This document shows, piece by piece, positions 36,821-63,660 of a DNA stretch of 64,000 nucleotides (the stretch's first letter is position 1; every line of letters begins with the position of its first letter). The notes beneath the pieces were generated by a model. It was not told the origin of the DNA. It saw only the letters and a list, made by a program, of their open reading frames with translations, and made no database searches. Origin of the DNA: Eledone cirrhosa (Eukaryota). The DNA is taken from assembly GCA_964016885.1 (NCBI GenBank), contig OZ024761.1:25854001-25918000 (forward strand), written 5' to 3'. The translations under genes and the position numbers were made by a program.

Positions 36821-37471
36821 TATATATTATAATTATATATAACATATATATATATTTTATATATATATATATATATTATATATTTATATTATATATATAT
36901 TATATATTTATATATTAAATATATAAAAAAATATATATAATATATATATAATATATATGTAATATATATATATATATACACATATATATATATATATGAA
37001 TATAAACATATACATGTGTGTGTGTATGCATATATAGATGTGTATATATATACATATATATATATATATGTATATATATATGCAATATTATATATCTACT
37101 TTAATTAAATTCTACATTAGAAACGGAAGATAATATTAAAACTAAAACTACACACAAGAAGAAAAGCAGGTGACATCAAATGAGATTTCTTTTTTCCGCT
37201 GATATTTTTGTATATTTGTCAGTAGTTAGTTTTCATATAGATTGGAGCAAAAAATATGTGTTGAGCGCTTCTAAAAAAAAAGTTAACCTCCTAAAATAAA
37301 AGCAAAATGAAAGAGTTGCAAGTCAGCCATAAATTAAACGATTAATGGCGCATAATGCAACATAAAACGTAAAATATAACACCAATATATAAATGTATTT
37401 TAATCTTTATTCATATATGTATGGATGGATGCATGTATGAACATATATATATATATATTTATATATTTATA

Positions 37472-37571
<100 letters not shown>

Positions 37572-37580
37572 TTATATATT

Positions 37581-37613
<33 letters not shown>

Positions 37614-37618
37614 TTATA

Positions 37619-37699
<81 letters not shown>

Positions 37700-37726
37700 A
37701 TATATATTTATATATTTATATATATA

Positions 37727-37872
<146 letters not shown>

Positions 37873-37896
37873 TATATATATATATTTATATATATA

Positions 37897-38243
<347 letters not shown>

Positions 38244-38260
38244 ATTTATATATATATATT

Positions 38261-38293
<33 letters not shown>

Positions 38294-38370
38294 ATTTATA
38301 TATATATATATTTATATATATATATTTATATATATATATATATATATTTATATATTTATATATATATATT

Positions 38371-38457
<87 letters not shown>

Positions 38458-38472
38458 ATTTATATATATATA

Positions 38473-38637
<165 letters not shown>

Positions 38638-38640
38638 ATT

Positions 38641-38700
<60 letters not shown>

Positions 38701-38750
38701 TATATATATATTTATATATATATTTATATATATATATTTATATATATATT

Positions 38751-38789
<39 letters not shown>

Positions 38790-38803
38790 ATATATATATA
38801 TTT

Positions 38804-38838
<35 letters not shown>

Positions 38839-38841
38839 ATT

Positions 38842-39006
<165 letters not shown>

Positions 39007-39009
39007 ATT

Positions 39010-39046
<37 letters not shown>

Positions 39047-39070
39047 ATATATATTTATATTATATATATA

Positions 39071-39117
<47 letters not shown>

Positions 39118-39136
39118 ATTTATATATATATATATT

Positions 39137-39175
<39 letters not shown>

Positions 39176-39194
39176 ATTTATATATATATATATT

Positions 39195-39251
<57 letters not shown>

Positions 39252-39254
39252 ATT

Positions 39255-39399
<145 letters not shown>

Positions 39400-39512
39400 A
39401 TTTATATATATATTTATATATATATATTTATATATATATATATTTATATATATTTATATATATATATATTTATATATATATATTATTATATATATTTATA
39501 TATATATATATT

Positions 39513-39573
<61 letters not shown>

Positions 39574-39593
39574 ATATTTATAATATATATATA

Positions 39594-39666
<73 letters not shown>

Positions 39667-39669
39667 ATT

Positions 39670-39702
<33 letters not shown>

Positions 39703-39717
39703 TTATATATATATATT

Positions 39718-39878
<161 letters not shown>

Positions 39879-39880
39879 TA

Positions 39881-40035
<155 letters not shown>

Positions 40036-40036
40036 T

Positions 40037-40189
<153 letters not shown>

Positions 40190-40290
40190 TTATATATATA
40201 TATTTATATATATATATTTATATATATATATATATATTTATATATATTTATATATATATATTTATATATATATATTTATATATATATATT

Positions 40291-40322
<32 letters not shown>

Positions 40323-40383
40323 CATATATATATATATATTTATATATATATACATATATATATTTATATATATAATTATATAT

Positions 40384-40436
<53 letters not shown>

Positions 40437-40443
40437 ATTATAT

Positions 40444-40479
<36 letters not shown>

Positions 40480-40664
40480 AATAATTATATATATATATAT
40501 AATATTATATATATATATATATATATATAAATATATATATAAATATATATAATATATATATATAAATATATATATATAAATATATATAATATATATATAA
40601 TATATATATATAAATATATATATATAAATATATATAATATATATATATATAAATAAATATATAT

Positions 40665-40827
<163 letters not shown>

Positions 40828-40831
40828 ATAT

Positions 40832-41115
<284 letters not shown>

Positions 41116-41117
41116 AT

Positions 41118-41396
<279 letters not shown>

Positions 41397-41404
41397 TATA
41401 TAAT

Positions 41405-41443
<39 letters not shown>

Positions 41444-41444
41444 A

Positions 41445-41519
<75 letters not shown>

Positions 41520-41529
41520 ATATATATAT

Positions 41530-41560
<31 letters not shown>

Positions 41561-41570
41561 ATATATATAT

Positions 41571-41616
<46 letters not shown>

Positions 41617-41634
41617 TATATATATATAATATAT

Positions 41635-41700
<66 letters not shown>

Positions 41701-41711
41701 ATAATATATAT

Positions 41712-41764
<53 letters not shown>

Positions 41765-41781
41765 ATATATATATAATATAT

Positions 41782-41956
<175 letters not shown>

Positions 41957-41966
41957 TATAATATAT

Positions 41967-42062
<96 letters not shown>

Positions 42063-42106
42063 TATATATAATATATATATATATAATATATATATATATA
42101 TATAAT

Positions 42107-42161
<55 letters not shown>

Positions 42162-42169
42162 TATATATA

Positions 42170-42369
42170 NNNNNNNNNNNNNNNNNNNNNNNNNNNNNNN
42201 NNNNNNNNNNNNNNNNNNNNNNNNNNNNNNNNNNNNNNNNNNNNNNNNNNNNNNNNNNNNNNNNNNNNNNNNNNNNNNNNNNNNNNNNNNNNNNNNNNNN
42301 NNNNNNNNNNNNNNNNNNNNNNNNNNNNNNNNNNNNNNNNNNNNNNNNNNNNNNNNNNNNNNNNNNNNN
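42170..42369. other. Assembly gap (200 N)
   Basis: Run of N. Confidence 1.
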
Positions 42370-42373
42370 AGTA

Positions 42374-43066
<693 letters not shown>

Positions 43067-43067
43067 T

Positions 43068-43098
<31 letters not shown>

Positions 43099-43105
43099 AT
43101 ATATT

Positions 43106-43409
<304 letters not shown>

Positions 43410-43429
43410 TATATATATTTATATATATA

Positions 43430-43630
<201 letters not shown>

Positions 43631-43631
43631 A

Positions 43632-43690
<59 letters not shown>

Positions 43691-43693
43691 AAT

Positions 43694-43744
<51 letters not shown>

Positions 43745-43745
43745 T

Positions 43746-43890
<145 letters not shown>

Positions 43891-43911
43891 ATATTTATAT
43901 ATATATAAATT

Positions 43912-43984
<73 letters not shown>

Positions 43985-44016
43985 ATATATTTATATATAA
44001 TATATATATATATATT

Positions 44017-44079
<63 letters not shown>

Positions 44080-44094
44080 ATATATATATATTTG

Positions 44095-44128
<34 letters not shown>

Positions 44129-44130
44129 TG

Positions 44131-44164
<34 letters not shown>

Positions 44165-44170
44165 TATTTT

Positions 44171-44202
<32 letters not shown>

Positions 44203-44216
44203 TATTTATATATATT

Positions 44217-44376
<160 letters not shown>

Positions 44377-44386
44377 TATATATATA

Positions 44387-44427
<41 letters not shown>

Positions 44428-44444
44428 TTATATATATATTTATT

Positions 44445-44495
<51 letters not shown>

Positions 44496-44512
44496 TTATA
44501 TATATATTTATT

Positions 44513-44564
<52 letters not shown>

Positions 44565-44568
44565 TATT

Positions 44569-44600
<32 letters not shown>

Positions 44601-44737
44601 TATTTATATATATATTATATATATATTATATATTTATATATATATATATATATTTATTTATATATATATATTATATATATATATATTATATATATATTAT
44701 ATATTTATATATATATATATTTATATATATATATTTT

Positions 44738-44804
<67 letters not shown>

Positions 44805-45171
44805 ATATTTTTATATATATATATATATACAGGTATATACTTTCATATATATATTTATATGCATATGTATATATATTTATATGCATATGTATATATACGT
44901 ACACGTACGTATATACATACATATTCTTTAATACATACATATACCTACATATATATATATATAATATATATACATACATAAATATATATATATATATATA
45001 CATACATAAATATATATATATATATATATACATAGATATATACATATACATAAATATATACAAAAATACATATATATATATACATAAATATATACAAAAA
45101 TACATATATATATATACATAAATATATACAAAAATACATATATATATATACATAAATATATACAAAAATAC

Positions 45172-45202
<31 letters not shown>

Positions 45203-45321
45203 CAAAAATACATATATATATATATATACATATATATCTACAAAAATACATATATATATATATCTACATAAATACATATATATATATATGTATATAAATA
45301 CATATATATATATACATAAAT

Positions 45322-45352
<31 letters not shown>

Positions 45353-45413
45353 CATATATATTTATAAATATATATATACATATATACATAAATACATATA
45401 TTTATATAAATAC

Positions 45414-45450
<37 letters not shown>

Positions 45451-45889
45451 CATAAATACATATATATATATATATTTATAAATATATATATACATAAATA
45501 CATATATATATATATTTATAAATATATATATACATAAATACATATATATATATATTTATAATTATATATATACATAAATACATATATATATATTTATAAA
45601 TATATATATACATAAATACATATATATATATTTATAAATATATATATACATAAATACATATATATATATTTATAAATATATATATACATAAATACATATA
45701 TATATATATAAATATATTTATACATAAATAAATATATATATACATAAATAAATATATATATACATAAATAAATATATATATATATATAAATATATATATA
45801 CATAAATAAATATATATATACATAAATAAATATATATATACATAAATACATATATACATATACATAAATACATATACATAAATACATAT

Positions 45890-45922
<33 letters not shown>

Positions 45923-46430
45923 AATATATATATATATAAATATATATATACATAAATACATATATATATAAATATATATATACATAAATACATATATTAT
46001 ATAAATATATATATACATAAATACATATATATATATAAATATATATATACATAAATACATATATATATATATATATATAAATATATATATACATAAATAC
46101 ATATATATATATATTTATATATAAATATATATATACATAAATACATATATATATATATATATATAAATATATATATACATAAATACATATATATATATAT
46201 TTATATATAAATATATATATACATAAATACATATATATATATATATATTTATATATAAATATATATATACATAAATACATATATATATATATATTTATAA
46301 ATATATATATACATAAATACATACATGTATATATAAATACATATATATATATTATATGCATATATATATATATATATATATAATAAATGCATATATATAT
46401 AAATAAATGCATATATATATACACAAATAC

Positions 46431-56872: not shown

Positions 56873-56874
56873 GT

Positions 56875-56953
56875 GATGTGTTGGTGTAAATGGTAGCACA
56901 GTGGTCCGGATAACCAAAGATGTGGGTTCGGCTCCCATGTACGTCAATACTCA
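56875..56953 (+). mobile_element. tRNA-like SINE head (family C)
   Basis: ggtgtaaatggtagcac...gggttcggctccc; second copy on minus strand at 59688-59760. Confidence 0.55.
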
Positions 56954-59058: not shown

Positions 59059-59228
59059 CGAAGGAGTTGTGGGGTAAGGAACCAGATGGACCATAACGCA
59101 CCAGAGTACTCAATATTTAGGGTAGTAGGAGAATATATGACCCCAACGGCAGAGCTCAAGCTGTTTCGACGGCTATTTCTGAGTCCAGAAATAGCTGTCG
59201 AAACGGCTTCAGTTCTGCCGTCGGAGGC
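59057..59228 (-). mobile_element. Fold-back element family E
   Basis: Same body, hairpin centre ttctgagtccagaa. Confidence 0.8.
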
Positions 59229-59239
59229 ATATATTTTCA

Positions 59240-59281
<42 letters not shown>

Positions 59282-59283
59282 CA

Positions 59284-59488
59284 ATCGATCGACTTTCGTC
59301 AAATCGGACCGAGGAAACAATGTTTCCGTTTGTCTTTCCAATTGCTAATACTATCTATCGGTCGCAACTCCAGGTAGAAGGAACAACGAGAAATAAAGTG
59401 TCTTGCCCAAAGATATCACGCATCGCCGGGTCAGGGATTCGAACTTACAATATCATGATTGCGAATCCAATTGTATAACGACTCAACC
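59284..59488 (-). mobile_element. SINE family B copy
   Basis: Homology to the other copies. Confidence 0.85.
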
Positions 59489-59912
59489 ATACATATATAT
59501 ACACATAGGGATGCCCTTCAAGGATGGCCTTACTGGAGAATACGCAGCTTCTTGAAACAACAGTATGTTGAGTTACAATTCCAGAATTTTATATAGCTAC
59601 TACCATTTGCTTACGCTGTATTTGACTAAATGAAATTAGTCTGTTAGTTGAGATTTTTAAAAAAAGCCCTCTTATTGGAAGAAAGCATGAGCGTTGACGT
59701 ACATGGGATACGAACCCACATCTTTGTTTTGCCGTACCAATATTTTAACTAATAGACTCATTTTATTAGACATAAGAAAATGTTACTTGGTATTTTTTTC
59801 AAATCTTCGCTGTTTATAAACAAAATATGCTTTGTATCTCTCTCTCCCCCTCTCTCTTTTATATATATATATACAAACACACACATATGTATATACAAAT
59901 GCACAGGCATGC

Positions 59913-59951
<39 letters not shown>

Positions 59952-60359
59952 TGCATGTTTGTGAATATATCTGTGTTTATGTCATTGTGACTTTACACGC
60001 ACCATATCTGTATCCTTTATCCTTCTACCCTTCTATATTTTCTCTCACTATAACAGCTTATATGTGACACATTGTTATCTGGTTTCGTTATAACTATATT
60101 ACCAGAGAAAAACAAGACGCAACATAACGAGACATCAACTACAGCAACAAAGAAAATCAAAACCAAAAAGCAAACATTCATTCCATCACTAAATGTCATG
60201 AAAATGTCAAACGAGCGATTACATTAATTATGCACGTATAAACAAGAGACTTTGTGAAATATTAAGGTAGGGTGTTGGATTAAACTGCAGTAAATAGGAG
60301 AAAACGATTAAACGATTGTAGAACAGTTTAAGTATTTTGATTTATTTGTACATGTATAT

Positions 60360-60390
<31 letters not shown>

Positions 60391-60391
<1 letters not shown>

Positions 60392-60628
60392 GGCCTTTTG
60401 ATTAATAAAAGGCCTCGGGCGCACCCGTACTACACCGATGTCCTGTAATTCAGCGCCGAAACATCGATTCGGGATATTTTACAGCTGACGATGGAAACAC
60501 CTTTCTTCCTTTCTCCTCCTGTTCCGTCCTAACCACCATCCTAAACCTTCTTTTTAGTAACCACACAGCTCCTTTCGTTTCGTAACTTTATATATATATA
60601 TATATACATACACACTTATATGTAGAAG

Positions 60629-60668
<40 letters not shown>

Positions 60669-60861
60669 TACGAAACGAAAGGAGCTGTGTGGTTACTAAA
60701 AAGAAGGTTTAGGATGGTGGTTAGGACGGAACAGGAGGAGAAAGGAAGAAAGGTGTTTCCATCGTCAGCTGTAAAATATCCCGAACCGATGTTTCGGCGC
60801 TGAATTACAGGACATCGGTGTAGTTCGGGTGCGCCCGAGGCCTTTTATTAATCAAAAGGCC

Positions 60862-60862
<1 letters not shown>
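60391..60862. mobile_element. Inverted duplication of a ~200-bp element around a TA spacer
   Basis: Arms 60391-60590 and 60663-60862 differ at 2 positions by eye; contain HHR parts. Confidence 0.85.
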
Positions 60863-60935
<73 letters not shown>

Positions 60936-61432
60936 TAATAATAATAATACAAGTACAATTTGTTAAGCCTTTATCACTTTTATTGATTGGTGACGCGCGT
61001 TTCGCTAAAGGTTCGAGCAGTAACGATATTAGCCGAGTCTGGAATCAAAAGCACATGGGACCTCTGCTGTTTAGCGGTACAGCTCGCCAATGACTTGAAC
61101 CTACACTCGAGTGCTCACCTGGATGAACCTATCTATCGGTCGCAAATCCTGGAAGGTGGAATCTAAATCGCAACCTCACAATTACGAATCCAGTTCTCTA
61201 ACCATTCACCCACACATCATGTATATAAATAGCCATCCAACCACTTAAAATGTTTCTAATATTCTGACATTTCACACCTCTTACTTTGCATGTTACATAC
61301 ACCACTCTTACTTCCATATACATCATTATCACTGACGTACATCTGAATTGTAAATGTTAAAAAATTAAATAAAATTCGGTCGTATAACCCCGTCGTAACT
61401 ACTTTAAAATGTATATATATATATATATATAT

Positions 61433-61641
61433 AACGAAGGAAATGTGGTAAGGAACCAGGTGGACCATAACGCACCAAAGTACTCAATACTTAGGGTAGT
61501 AGAGTAGGTAATAGGAACGAGTAGGACCCCGACGGCTGAGCTCAAGCCGTTTCGACGGCTAATTCTGGACTAAAAACATTTTTTAGTCAAGAATTAGCCG
61601 TCGAAACGGCTTGAGCTCAGCCATCGGGCTCCTACTCGTTG

Positions 61642-61642
<1 letters not shown>
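61433..61642 (-). mobile_element. Fold-back element family E
   Basis: Same body, spacer aaaaacattttt. Confidence 0.8.
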
Positions 61643-61705
<63 letters not shown>

Positions 61706-62070
61706 GTAGAACAGTGGAGGGTTATATCTGTAGTAGTAGCGCAATGAGTCGATGGGACGAGTTTGGTAGAAGTAGTTCCACAACAGTTAGTTTACCATAC
61801 GGGAACAAATGTTTCCCCTTACGCGGATACCTAGCTGAGAATCCGCGCATAATCGCTCCACATAATGATGTATTGTCTTCGCTTTTTTCCGTTTATTGCC
61901 AGGGAACGTCTTCATGAAGCAAAGTATCGTCTTCCTGTTTTCCTTCGGTTGCAACGTTTTTCGAAATATTTACTTCTGCGTTCGCAGATTGATTTTCTTT
62001 TAGCTTCAGAAGATCCTGTTAAGGGTGAAAGCAGCGATTCTTTGCTTATATTAATAAATGTATATATAGG

Positions 62071-62278
62071 AACGATCGACTTTCATCAAATCGGACCGAG
62101 GAAACGATGTTTCCATTGGTCTTTCCAATTGTAATACTATCTATCGGTCGCAACTCCAGGTAGAAGGAGCAACATGAAATAAAGTGTCTTGCTCAAGGAT
62201 ATAATGTATCGCCCTCTCTGGGAATCGAACTCACAACCTCACGATTGTGAATCCAATTATCTAACCACTCAGCCACAC
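62071..62278 (-). mobile_element. SINE family B copy
   Basis: Homology to the other copies. Confidence 0.85.
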
Positions 62279-63660
62279 AGAGAGTATGTGTGTGTGTGTC
62301 TTTGTGTCTATCTGTATGTGGTATATGTACGTGTATGTCTTTGGAGTTGTCTGTCTACATGTGTGTTTGCGTATGTATTTTATTGAGCTCCATACCAAAC
62401 CAGAATAGTATTTCCTTCTACCACAACCACGAAGACAGCGGCGGTGGCGACTCCGGGCGGGAGAGCAAAAATTGAGATAACTGCATTACTTAAAAAACCC
62501 AAAATATGGAACCTCTTTAACGAAACGACGCCAGTAAATTTTGTCCAGACTCTTTATCGATTCTAAGAACTTATCCTGTGAAAATCCGTTAACAGTATAG
62601 TCAAATTGAAGAAAACTAAGCGTGATGTAATTTTGCCTAGTGTTGCAGTTTATCCCCTACGGTGAAATACCGTTACAATAGCAGTAAATTTCAATGCAAG
62701 TGTTATGTAATCCCAGTCTTGTATTAAGCACATTTTAAACATTGGACAGTTATGTTTCATTAATTTAAAATTAAATCTGTCAACTGTAGAGTAAATTGTT
62801 AAATTACCTTTAAAGTACAAGAGAACTAACGCGCATAAATACGGATGGCCAATATATTATATCCAACTCAATTTAGTTATTCCAATCTCTCTCTTTTTCT
62901 AGTACTCGCACACACACACGCTCTCTCTTTCTATCTATCTATCTATCTCTCTCACACTACTTTTTTCTCTCTTTTCATCTTCCCCGCTTTATCTCATTCT
63001 CTTTTCTCTTTCGTTCTTTCTCTCTCTATATATATATATGGGGTGGGGTGAATATATATTTATATATATATGAATCTATTGTTGTTTGAGATTCTTTTTC
63101 TCCGTTTGGAATTCGTACATTTTCTATAAAGATTTTCTAAGTATCCTGCGCTTCGATAGGCATTTATATAAATACATACATACATACATACATACATACA
63201 TACGTGTGTGGGGGGGGGGTATGTGTGTGTGTGTGTGTGTGTTTGGTGTGTGAGGGAGGGGTTTGTTTGTACTCACAAATCACATGATATAAAAATAATA
63301 CAAAATATAACATATACGTGGAGATTAATATGAATGTTTTTCGTAGCAACTGAAGCACTGAAGCGTTGGTTGGAGAAAATCCAGAGGCAGAACAGCAGAA
63401 TAATCCACAAGCATGGCTACATGGATCATGCATCTGCACACACTACTGAGCAAAGAACCTCCTCTCCCTGAAAAAACAAGGATTTCTAGGCATGCTGTGT
63501 TCTCTAATTGCGGTCTTCTTATAGTGAACACACGAAATCTCTTTACACACAGACAAATACAAATATAAGTATATATGTTTACACATATACACATATAGAC
63601 ATATACACACATACATACGCAAGGGTTTAAACAATCTCTCTCTCTCTATCTATGATTCTA

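What the first reader, a model, noticed from the sequence alone, without database searches (positions are those of the whole stretch)
60391..60862. Candidate hammerhead with its parts in a non-canonical order, in a young inverted duplication
Each arm reads accgatGTC-ctgtaa-ttcagcgcc-GAAACatcggt-tcgggatatt-ttacag-CTGACGA-tgg. accgatGT/ACatcggt forms an 8-bp stem III (perfect in the right arm, extendable by cccga/tcggg) with GUC, and ctgtaa/ttacag forms a 6-bp stem I adjoining CUGACGA. However GAAA precedes CUGANGA, an order fitting none of types I-III and requiring a pseudoknot or trans/dimer assembly. Stem II is weak, so this is speculative. The arms differ at only 2 sites.
Basis: partly seen in the sequence, partly recalled or inferred. 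Interest (0 to 1): 0.8.

Follow-up and report, generated by a model that had tools for sequence, protein, structure and literature searches.

The report
Rewired hammerhead ribozyme in animal retroelements
The two mirror-image copies are the tail of a very common jumping repeat that carries a predicted self-cutting hammerhead RNA with its strands wired in an order I could not find described, and the same fold can be read at the ends of Naiad retrotransposons, which were reported to lack a normal hammerhead; cutting itself is untested.

Summary
In detail: two inverted 199-nt arms, two differences, stems I and III as described. Each arm is the 5'-truncated tail of a non-coding, roughly 800-nt tandem repeat that inserts into (TA)n, as Penelope-like elements do. 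The strand order is the published type SGC (Eckert 2023), known only from metatranscriptomes. The 'weak stem II' has another solution: its 5' strand lies upstream of the motif (GGCGC pairs with GCGCC before GAAA), not after CUGACGA. A fourth helix (P0) ties stems I and II to stem III. Diverged families in this genome (one pattern: 21,391 matches, control 346) keep all four helices with compensatory changes; most have a kink-turn-like loop between P0 and stem III. By eye, 9 of 54 published Naiad consensus sequences (ctenophore to octopus) end in the same fold and 5 more in type CSG. Verdict: a new variant of the hammerhead, most likely self-cleaving at GUC 60442/60811 (about 0.7). Not shown: cleavage, expression, monomer or dimer, and which autonomous element moves this family. 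This locus itself is probably an inert pair of fragments.

The parts
60391..60589 (+). Left arm: 5'-truncated 3' end of the repeat element (family A)
   Evidence: 95-97% identical to the best genome copies, fixed 3' end
60664..60862 (-). Right arm: same fragment, same truncation point, inverted
60418..60491 (+). Predicted split type-SGC hammerhead, left arm (one mismatch shortens stem III to 6 bp)
60762..60835 (-). Predicted split type-SGC hammerhead, right arm (all four helices intact)
60418..60422 (+). Stem II 5' strand, upstream of the motif; pairs with 60453-60457 (right arm: 60835-60831 with 60800-60796)
60424..60428 (+). P0 5' strand; pairs with 60469-60473; followed by a 5-nt bulge at 60429-60433
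60434..60441 (+). Stem III 5' strand; pairs with 60461-60468
60442..60442 (+). C17, predicted cleavage site (cut 3' of it); 60811 on the minus strand
   Evidence: hammerhead analogy; H17 varies among A, C and U in relatives; untested
60443..60448 (+). Stem I 5' strand; pairs with 60479-60484
60458..60461 (+). GAAA core strand (60795-60792 on minus)
   Evidence: invariant in alignments A2 and A3; also imposed by the search patterns
60485..60491 (+). CUGACGA core strand (60768-60762 on minus)
   Evidence: invariant in A2 and A3; also imposed by the search patterns
60391..60413 (+). Short palindromic hairpin ahead of the motif, present in family A and close relatives; role unknown
   Evidence: sequence
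60492..60589 (+). Pyrimidine-rich tail up to the fixed 3' end; the last 30 nt resemble those of several sister families
60590..60663 (.). (TA)n-rich centre between the two 3' ends
60355..60390 (+). Microsatellite flank copied identically at 60863-60898, so the duplication reaches beyond the element

Best explanation
Each arm is the tail of a non-coding tandem repeat and holds a hammerhead core whose four helices are kept by compensatory changes across sister families; it is predicted to cut itself after the GUC and likely belongs to a non-autonomous partner of Naiad-type Penelope-like retrotransposons. The 5'-to-3' order is: stem II 5' strand, P0 5', stem III 5', C17, stem I 5', short linker, stem II 3', GAAA, stem III 3', P0 3', stem I 3', CUGANGA. 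This is Eckert's type SGC opened between A9 and stem II, so stem II is completed by an upstream strand (shown by comparison). P0 holds the far ends of stems I and II together, like the loop-loop contact of ordinary hammerheads (inferred). In most sister families P0 joins stem III through a loop with the sequence signature of a kink-turn; in this family, through a 5-nt bulge. The likely role is to cut head-to-tail transcripts into unit-length RNA for ligation and reverse transcription by the helper element (inferred from retrozymes). Whether one copy folds alone (about 55%) or two tandem copies swap strands (about 45%) is open. This locus is probably an inert pair of fragments.
For: Order enriched genome-wide: 41 vs 3 control, 22 vs 1, 21,391 vs 346, 27 vs 1. 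Structure counts: 82.5% of cells paired and 18 of 23 pairs changed on both sides in 21 sequences; 90.1% and 17 of 23 in 18 sequences; 0 of 500 shuffles reach the paired share; slid controls 32-49%. Tree-aware count on 31 rows: compensatory double changes 2.5 in stem III, 9.0 in stem I, 5.2 in P0 and 2.5 in upstream stem II, against null means of 0.1-0.5 (0, 0, 0 and 2 of 300); 0 for a stem II after CUGANGA. Of 75 descriptor hits, 56 have a 5-bp upstream stem II (shuffled mean 14, max 25) and 4 have a 4-bp stem II after the core. 0 of 120 chance core matches pass the descriptor, against 13 of 23 genome loci. Out of sample, read by eye after the model was fixed: the same fold with unrelated stems at the 3' end of 9 of 54 Naiad consensus sequences in PMC8557442 File S5. 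Type-SGC RNAs cleave in vitro and need all four helices (PMC10085705). A base between A9 and 10.1 is common in Penelope hammerheads (PMC4209133). Element anatomy: fixed 3' end, (TA)n after it in 27 of 29 loci, variable 5' ends, tandem units of 526-862 nt.
Against: No cleavage assay and no RNA data. The first pattern search showed no enrichment (27 vs 22). A per-pair tree-aware test on 56 unaligned rows gave no proposed pair below E 0.05 (best 0.67). The passing test left out 18 of 49 rows, family A among them, and the helices were derived from the same sequences. Upstream stem II is the least regular helix (77-81% paired; its middle three pairs barely vary). The lowest-energy nested fold of this copy is inactive: GUC pairs with the core strand and GAAA sits in a hairpin; z-scores are only -0.7 to -2.1. 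The 5' ends of copies do not pile up at the cut site beyond AT microhomology. No Naiad ORF was found next to any fetched motif, so the helper link rests on the shared fold and the (TA)n target. All helices at once in one molecule look strained (recalled geometry, not modelled).
Confidence: 0.72

Rival explanations
1. Plain type-SGC hammerhead with a 1-2-bp stem II made by the bases right after CUGANGA. The upstream helix would be an off-switch or folding aid that must open for cleavage.
For: In 31 aligned rows, base 11.1 can pair with the base after A9 in 25 and with the upstream strand in 15 (either: 29). In some families the upstream strand can also pair into G12-A13. Penelope hammerheads keep a G10.1-C11.1 pair (PMC4209133).
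Against: No compensatory change after the core, 47-48% paired. A 4-bp stem after the core in only 4 of 75 hits. In the window copy the base after A9 is U opposite C. In the coral Naiad ends the bases after the core do not pair at all (by eye). The upstream helix ends at 11.1 or 11.2, where stem II belongs. A mixed form (first pair from the core strand, the rest from upstream) fits the best explanation.
Confidence: 0.13
2. The fold descends from a hammerhead but is kept as a binding or priming signal for the helper's reverse transcriptase and cuts poorly or only with protein.
For: It sits about 150 nt from the fixed 3' end. In an anole Penelope element the hammerhead needed protein, was dispensable for insertion in vitro, and no RNA ends mapped to its site (PMC11167929). 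No clear pile-up of 5' ends at the site here.
Against: The full catalytic signature is kept: U at 16.1 in 30 of 31 rows and non-G at 17 in 30 of 31, in rows only partly selected for it. Three anecdotal junctions fall on the predicted cut.
Confidence: 0.1
3. Chance pairing in a repeat, made to look conserved by shared descent and by my search patterns.
For: The patterns imposed the core words; two searches were negative; copies are not independent.
Against: Stems were not in the patterns, yet change on both sides along the tree. 0 of 120 chance loci pass. The fold recurs with unrelated letters in published Naiad ends from five phyla.
Confidence: 0.02

Closest known systems
Type-SGC hammerhead ribozymes (HRIMA-1 and variants; Eckert et al. 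2023, PMC10085705)
   Same: Order cleavage site, GAAA, CUGANGA; short linker from stem I to stem II; a fourth helix joining the other sides of stems I and II; the same distance puzzle between that helix and stem III.
   Different: There the stem II 5' strand follows CUGANGA directly ('block C', assumed unbreakable). Here it lies upstream of the motif and P0 is joined to stem III on both strands, mostly through a kink-turn-like loop. Published examples come from metatranscriptomes; these are chromosomal repeats in an animal. Their supplementary alignment figures were not visible to me.
Type-CSG hammerheads (same paper)
   Same: Same circle of strands opened at another point; by eye, 5 Naiad consensus ends near the nematode records have this form.
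   Different: Block C is intact; only two natural examples were reported, from metagenomes.
Minimal type-I hammerheads of Penelope-like elements and non-LTR retrozymes (PMC4209133; bioRxiv 10.64898/2026.07.22.740005)
   Same: Hammerhead near the end of a Penelope-type repeat, tandem non-coding units of a few hundred bases, tolerance of a base after A9, possible two-copy action.
   Different: Those are type I with a hairpin stem II and little stem III. This one has a long stem III, three crossing helices and no hairpin stem.
Naiad Penelope-like retrotransposons (Craig et al. 2021, PMC8557442)
   Same: (TA)n target, 5' truncation, tandem and inverted copies; the same RNA fold read at the 3' end of 9 of 54 consensus sequences.
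   Different: Naiads are 3.4-4.4 kb and encode endonuclease plus reverse transcriptase; this family is non-coding. The authors reported no canonical hammerhead, only 'core' and 'half core' motifs.

Membership tests
Hammerhead ribozyme | Core CUGANGA, GAAA and NUH triplet | tested here: met
   Both arms; 27 of 28 family A copies keep the core
Hammerhead ribozyme | Stems I and III flank the core and covary | tested here: met
   per-pair test on unaligned rows negative
Hammerhead ribozyme | Stem II stacked next to GAAA | tested here: met
   5 bp with an upstream strand; not by the usual strand
Hammerhead ribozyme | Site-specific self-cleavage that needs G5 | not testable with these tools
   No assay; genomic 5'-end test inconclusive
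Hammerhead types I, II, III | Cyclic order site, CUGANGA, GAAA with no pseudoknot in the core | tested here: not met
   GAAA precedes CUGACGA; no Rfam hammerhead match
Type-SGC hammerhead | Block order S, G, C | tested here: met
Type-SGC hammerhead | Helix joining the outer sides of stems I and II; short stem I-II linker | tested here: met
   P0 82-95% paired, 5 of 6 pairs changed on both sides; 4-nt linker
Type-SGC hammerhead | Block C unbroken: stem II strand directly after CUGANGA | tested here: not met
   0 compensatory changes, 47-48% paired; 4 of 75 hits; at most the first pair comes from there
Non-LTR retrozyme | Non-coding head-to-tail units of a few hundred bases, one ribozyme per unit | tested here: met
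   Family A spacing 778-862 nt, sisters 526-690 nt; longest stop-free frame 104 codons
Non-LTR retrozyme | Type I hammerhead | tested here: not met
   Order is S, G, C
Non-LTR retrozyme | Transcribed and circularised | not testable with these tools
   No RNA holder listed
Naiad Penelope-like element | ORF with N-terminal GIY-YIG and C-terminal RT | tested here: not met
   Unit is non-coding; no such ORF beside fetched motifs (weak test)
Naiad Penelope-like element | (TA)n target, fixed 3' end, 5' truncation, tandem or inverted copies | tested here: met
   27 of 29 loci end in (TA)n; shared with other Penelope clades, so not diagnostic
Naiad Penelope-like element | Sequence homology to a Naiad 3' end | tested here: inconclusive
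   Same fold read by eye; no alignment to the published sequences was run; a short-motif search found relatives without an ORF
Kink-turn (consensus recalled) | 3-nt bulge followed by tandem G-A pairs between two helices | tested here: inconclusive
   Sister families: GA after a 3-nt bulge in 29 of 31, opposite GA in 11 and UA in 20. The window copy has a 5-nt bulge instead. Sequence only

The most novel reading that the evidence does not exclude
Naiad retrotransposons across animals, and their non-coding passengers, carry their own class of hammerhead: one circle of strands opened at different points, including inside the block thought unbreakable, bent by a built-in kink-turn, and active only when two tandem copies swap strands, so that multimeric transcripts are cut and monomers are spared.
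Probability: 0.3. Interest if true: 0.9.

Novelty: new variant of a known kind. Interest (0 to 1): 0.8.

Why it matters
It would put non-circularly permuted hammerheads, so far known from environmental RNA of unknown hosts, into animal chromosomes at tens of thousands of copies. It would add a wiring outside the six orders proposed in 2023, because the core strand and stem II are separated. It would also answer why Naiads, among the most abundant invertebrate retroelements, seemed to lack the hammerhead that other Penelope clades carry. The many natural variants make both structure and cleavage directly testable with 80-nt transcripts.

Tried and rejected
Rfam: no hammerhead match; the microRNA matches below threshold reflect the long hairpin. 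First variant pattern: 27 vs 22 control, no enrichment, though it revealed families C and D. Per-pair covariation on 56 gapless rows: nothing below E 0.05; rows were out of register and included chance matches. 5'-end test for cleavage in vivo: 11 of 15 (TA)n-joined copies start at +2 to +8, none at +1; controls gave 11 loci in -30 to -1 and 18 in +13 to +42, about half at another AT-rich patch; a scan of flanking copies was swamped by microsatellites and showed none at 0 or +1. Inconclusive. Sequencing runs: no RNA holder listed; read ends at 60447-60450 in a RAD run look like a restriction site; no contig spans the duplication. Helper search: one pattern had the wrong spacing and found nothing; the corrected one found 27 sites; 10 regions of 5 kb showed no Naiad ORF upstream; 134 of 206 candidate frames plus one extra were scanned with Pfam and gave no GIY-YIG, but a 659-aa frame that looks Penelope-like also had no Pfam hit, so the test is weak. 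A prokaryote-virus scan served only as a negative control. Rejected as chance matches: the L131/L132-type family (an ordinary type I motif follows) and the L053 satellite. A notebook remark on the inactive fold (entry 3) was wrong; one search gives the right pairing.

Full report
1. Observation. The window is repeat-rich and shows no coding context. It lies in a 3.0-Gb genome whose repeat landscape looks octopus-like to me (recalled; not tested). The arms 60391-60589 (+) and 60664-60862 (-) are reverse complements with 2 differences. They point their 3' ends at a (TA)n-rich centre, start at the same base and share 36 bases of flank. This fits a duplication during or after one insertion better than two insertions (inference). 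No contig spans it. Rfam has no hammerhead match.

2. The element. A search of the own genome gave 1,291 first-look candidates, 40 scored, 95-97% identical. In 29 loci the 3' end is fixed and is followed by (TA)n in 27, while the 5' ends vary. Tandem copies are spaced 778-862 nt; sister families 526-690 nt. The longest stop-free frame in the unit is 104 codons. These are traits of Penelope-like elements (PMC8557442, passages) and of non-LTR retrozymes (bioRxiv 10.64898/2026.07.22.740005, parts 1-2 of 5). The predicted cut lies about 150 nt before the fixed end.

3. The order is published. Eckert et al. 2023 (PMC10085705; parts 2-6 of 8 read; supplement searched by term only, figures not seen) divide the hammerhead into blocks S, G and C. 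They show that natural type-SGC RNAs cleave, need four helices, and come from metatranscriptomes, none from known genomes. They assume that the stem II strand always follows CUGANGA directly.

4. Relatives in the genome. Patterns that excluded the window's family found others. One search gave 27 vs 22 control (no enrichment, but families C and D appeared; 1,624 and 1,093 candidates). One search gave 41 vs 3, 22 vs 1, 27 vs 1, and 21,391 vs 346 (overlapping matches count more than once). Clustering showed that the strand just 5' of the motif pairs with the strand just before GAAA, with different letters in different families. The outer 'stem III extension' is a separate helix, P0, lying between that strand and stem I. 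So the order is II5', P0, III5', C17, I5', linker, II3', GAAA, III3', P0, I3', CUGANGA: the SGC circle opened after A9.

5. Tests of that structure. I picked 21 and 18 representatives by hand from the clusters (medoids plus some single copies; clusters L131, L215, L076, L109 and L174 left out as chance, truncated, redundant or out of register). They gave 82.5% and 90.1% of cells paired, with 18 of 23 and 17 of 23 pairs changed on both sides. 0 of 500 shuffles reached the paired share and slid partners gave 32-49%; shuffles ignore kinship. A per-pair tree-aware test on 56 unaligned rows failed (best proposed pair E 0.67). After alignment I kept 31 of 49 rows in one register, dropping family A and others with indels. 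Compensatory double changes on the tree were 2.5 (III), 9.0 (I), 5.2 (P0) and 2.5 (upstream II), against null means of 0.12-0.45, reached by 0, 0, 0 and 2 of 300 simulations; a stem II after the core gave 0. Base 11.1 can pair with the upstream strand in 15 rows, with the base after A9 in 25, with either in 29 of 31, so the first pair of stem II may come from either side. A descriptor found 75 distinct hits with stems I and III; 56 have a 5-bp upstream stem II (shuffled mean 14.2, max 25) and 4 have a 4-bp stem after the core; reversed loci gave 0 (copies are not independent). 0 of 120 viral loci with chance core words pass, against 13 of 23 loci. Among 28 family A copies, 27 keep the core and 16 keep the core and all four helices.

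6. The hinge. Between stem III and P0, 29 of 31 rows have GA after a 3-nt bulge, facing GA (11) or UA (20). That is the signature of a kink-turn (consensus recalled; sequence only). The window family and family D have a 5-nt bulge on the other strand instead. From recalled geometry, closing stems I, III and P0 in one molecule is tight, while two copies swapping strands would close easily. I did not model this. Eckert et al. note the same puzzle for RNAs that do cleave, and Penelope hammerheads are thought to work as dimers (PMC4209133, parts 1-2 of 4).

7. Naiads. Craig et al. report that Naiads lack canonical hammerheads, and that eight have the second core half 35-50 nt away on either side. 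I read File S5 passages by eye only (three core spellings searched, line breaks can hide matches). After the model was fixed, I found the full split fold with unrelated stems near the 3' end of 9 of 54 consensus sequences: Bfor (stem I only 2 bp), Amil, Aacu, Anas (near-identical), 2_Movir, Plae, one crustacean record near part 19, Obim and Ovul; Esco fits in part. The octopus pair also has the kink-turn signature, and 2_Movir has the 5-nt bulge like the window copy. Five records among the nematode entries (Hcon, 2_Nbra, 3_Nbra, two unnamed) end in a plain type-CSG fold with P0. I saw none among the bivalve records in these passages. In the own genome I found no ORF beside the motif (weak tests), so the helper is inferred.

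8. Is it active? Not shown. The lowest-energy nested fold of both arms is inactive (-25.1 and -21.9 kcal/mol), while the four proposed helices sum to -48 and -40 kcal/mol of stacking before loop costs. The 5'-end test was inconclusive. Three anecdotes fit a cut at the predicted base: 2 of 3 junction records (one contig each, seen again) land on 60442/60811, and a head-to-head pair at L250 joins exactly at +1. They were noticed after the fact. Against a simple role, an anole Penelope hammerhead needed protein and was dispensable for insertion in vitro (PMC11167929, passages). At this locus a transcript through both arms would form a long hairpin that masks the motifs, though the first arm could fold before the second is made (inference).

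9. Novelty. Nine paper searches found no description of an SGC or split hammerhead in an animal genome, of a Naiad ribozyme, or of a natural hammerhead with a kink-turn; subscription journals are mostly missing. It works like a type-SGC hammerhead but fails one defining feature (unbroken block C), so I file it as a new variant. Eight earlier AI reports on this genome, seen only after my analysis, say much the same; they are not independent evidence.

10. Verdict. Observation confirmed; interpretation partly supported. Split type-SGC hammerhead that self-cleaves, 0.72; plain SGC with a regulatory upstream helix, 0.13; non-cleaving signal, 0.10; chance, 0.02. Interest 0.8.

Noticed in passing
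window 59070-59230 and 61440-61650: Another (TA)n-associated repeat that occurs as palindromic pairs, holds a GAAAC in a short hairpin and has a 3' end resembling this element's; I saw no CUGANGA in it.
   Followed up: no
L008, L014, L052, L112, L131, L132, L173: Ordinary type-I-like Penelope hammerheads (CUGANGA, one extra A, hairpin stem II, GAAAC) also occur in this genome; L131 has a Penelope-like RT fragment upstream.
   Followed up: partly
PMC8557442 File S5, near parts 16-19 (spider and crustacean Naiads): Several 3' ends have four Cs before CUGANGA and an upstream run of Gs; in one, stem II seems to be a closed hairpin between stem I and GAAA, which would be a further wiring. Read by eye only.
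   Followed up: no
PMC8557442 File S5, nematode Naiads: Type-CSG hammerheads with a long I-II tie helix, a form published from only two metagenome sequences.
   Followed up: partly
L250 (G000:C1:29084900-29085450): Two inverted copies joined exactly at the base after the predicted cut.
   Followed up: partly
L248:3013-4989 (+): A 659-codon open frame that looks Penelope-like by eye but has no Pfam match.
   Followed up: partly
window 56874-56947 (+): tRNA-like sequence (Rfam 37.3 bits; ARAGORN calls Ser-GGA), probably the head of a SINE.
   Followed up: no
window 59260-59493, 61129-61216, 62047-62279: Three copies of another dispersed repeat with a tRNA-like box, probably a SINE.
   Followed up: no
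window 37400-46000: About 8 kb of almost pure (TA)n with a run of N, an assembly gap.
   Followed up: no
L053: A short tandem satellite in which GAAAC and CUGAUGA recur in every unit; treated as chance.
   Followed up: no
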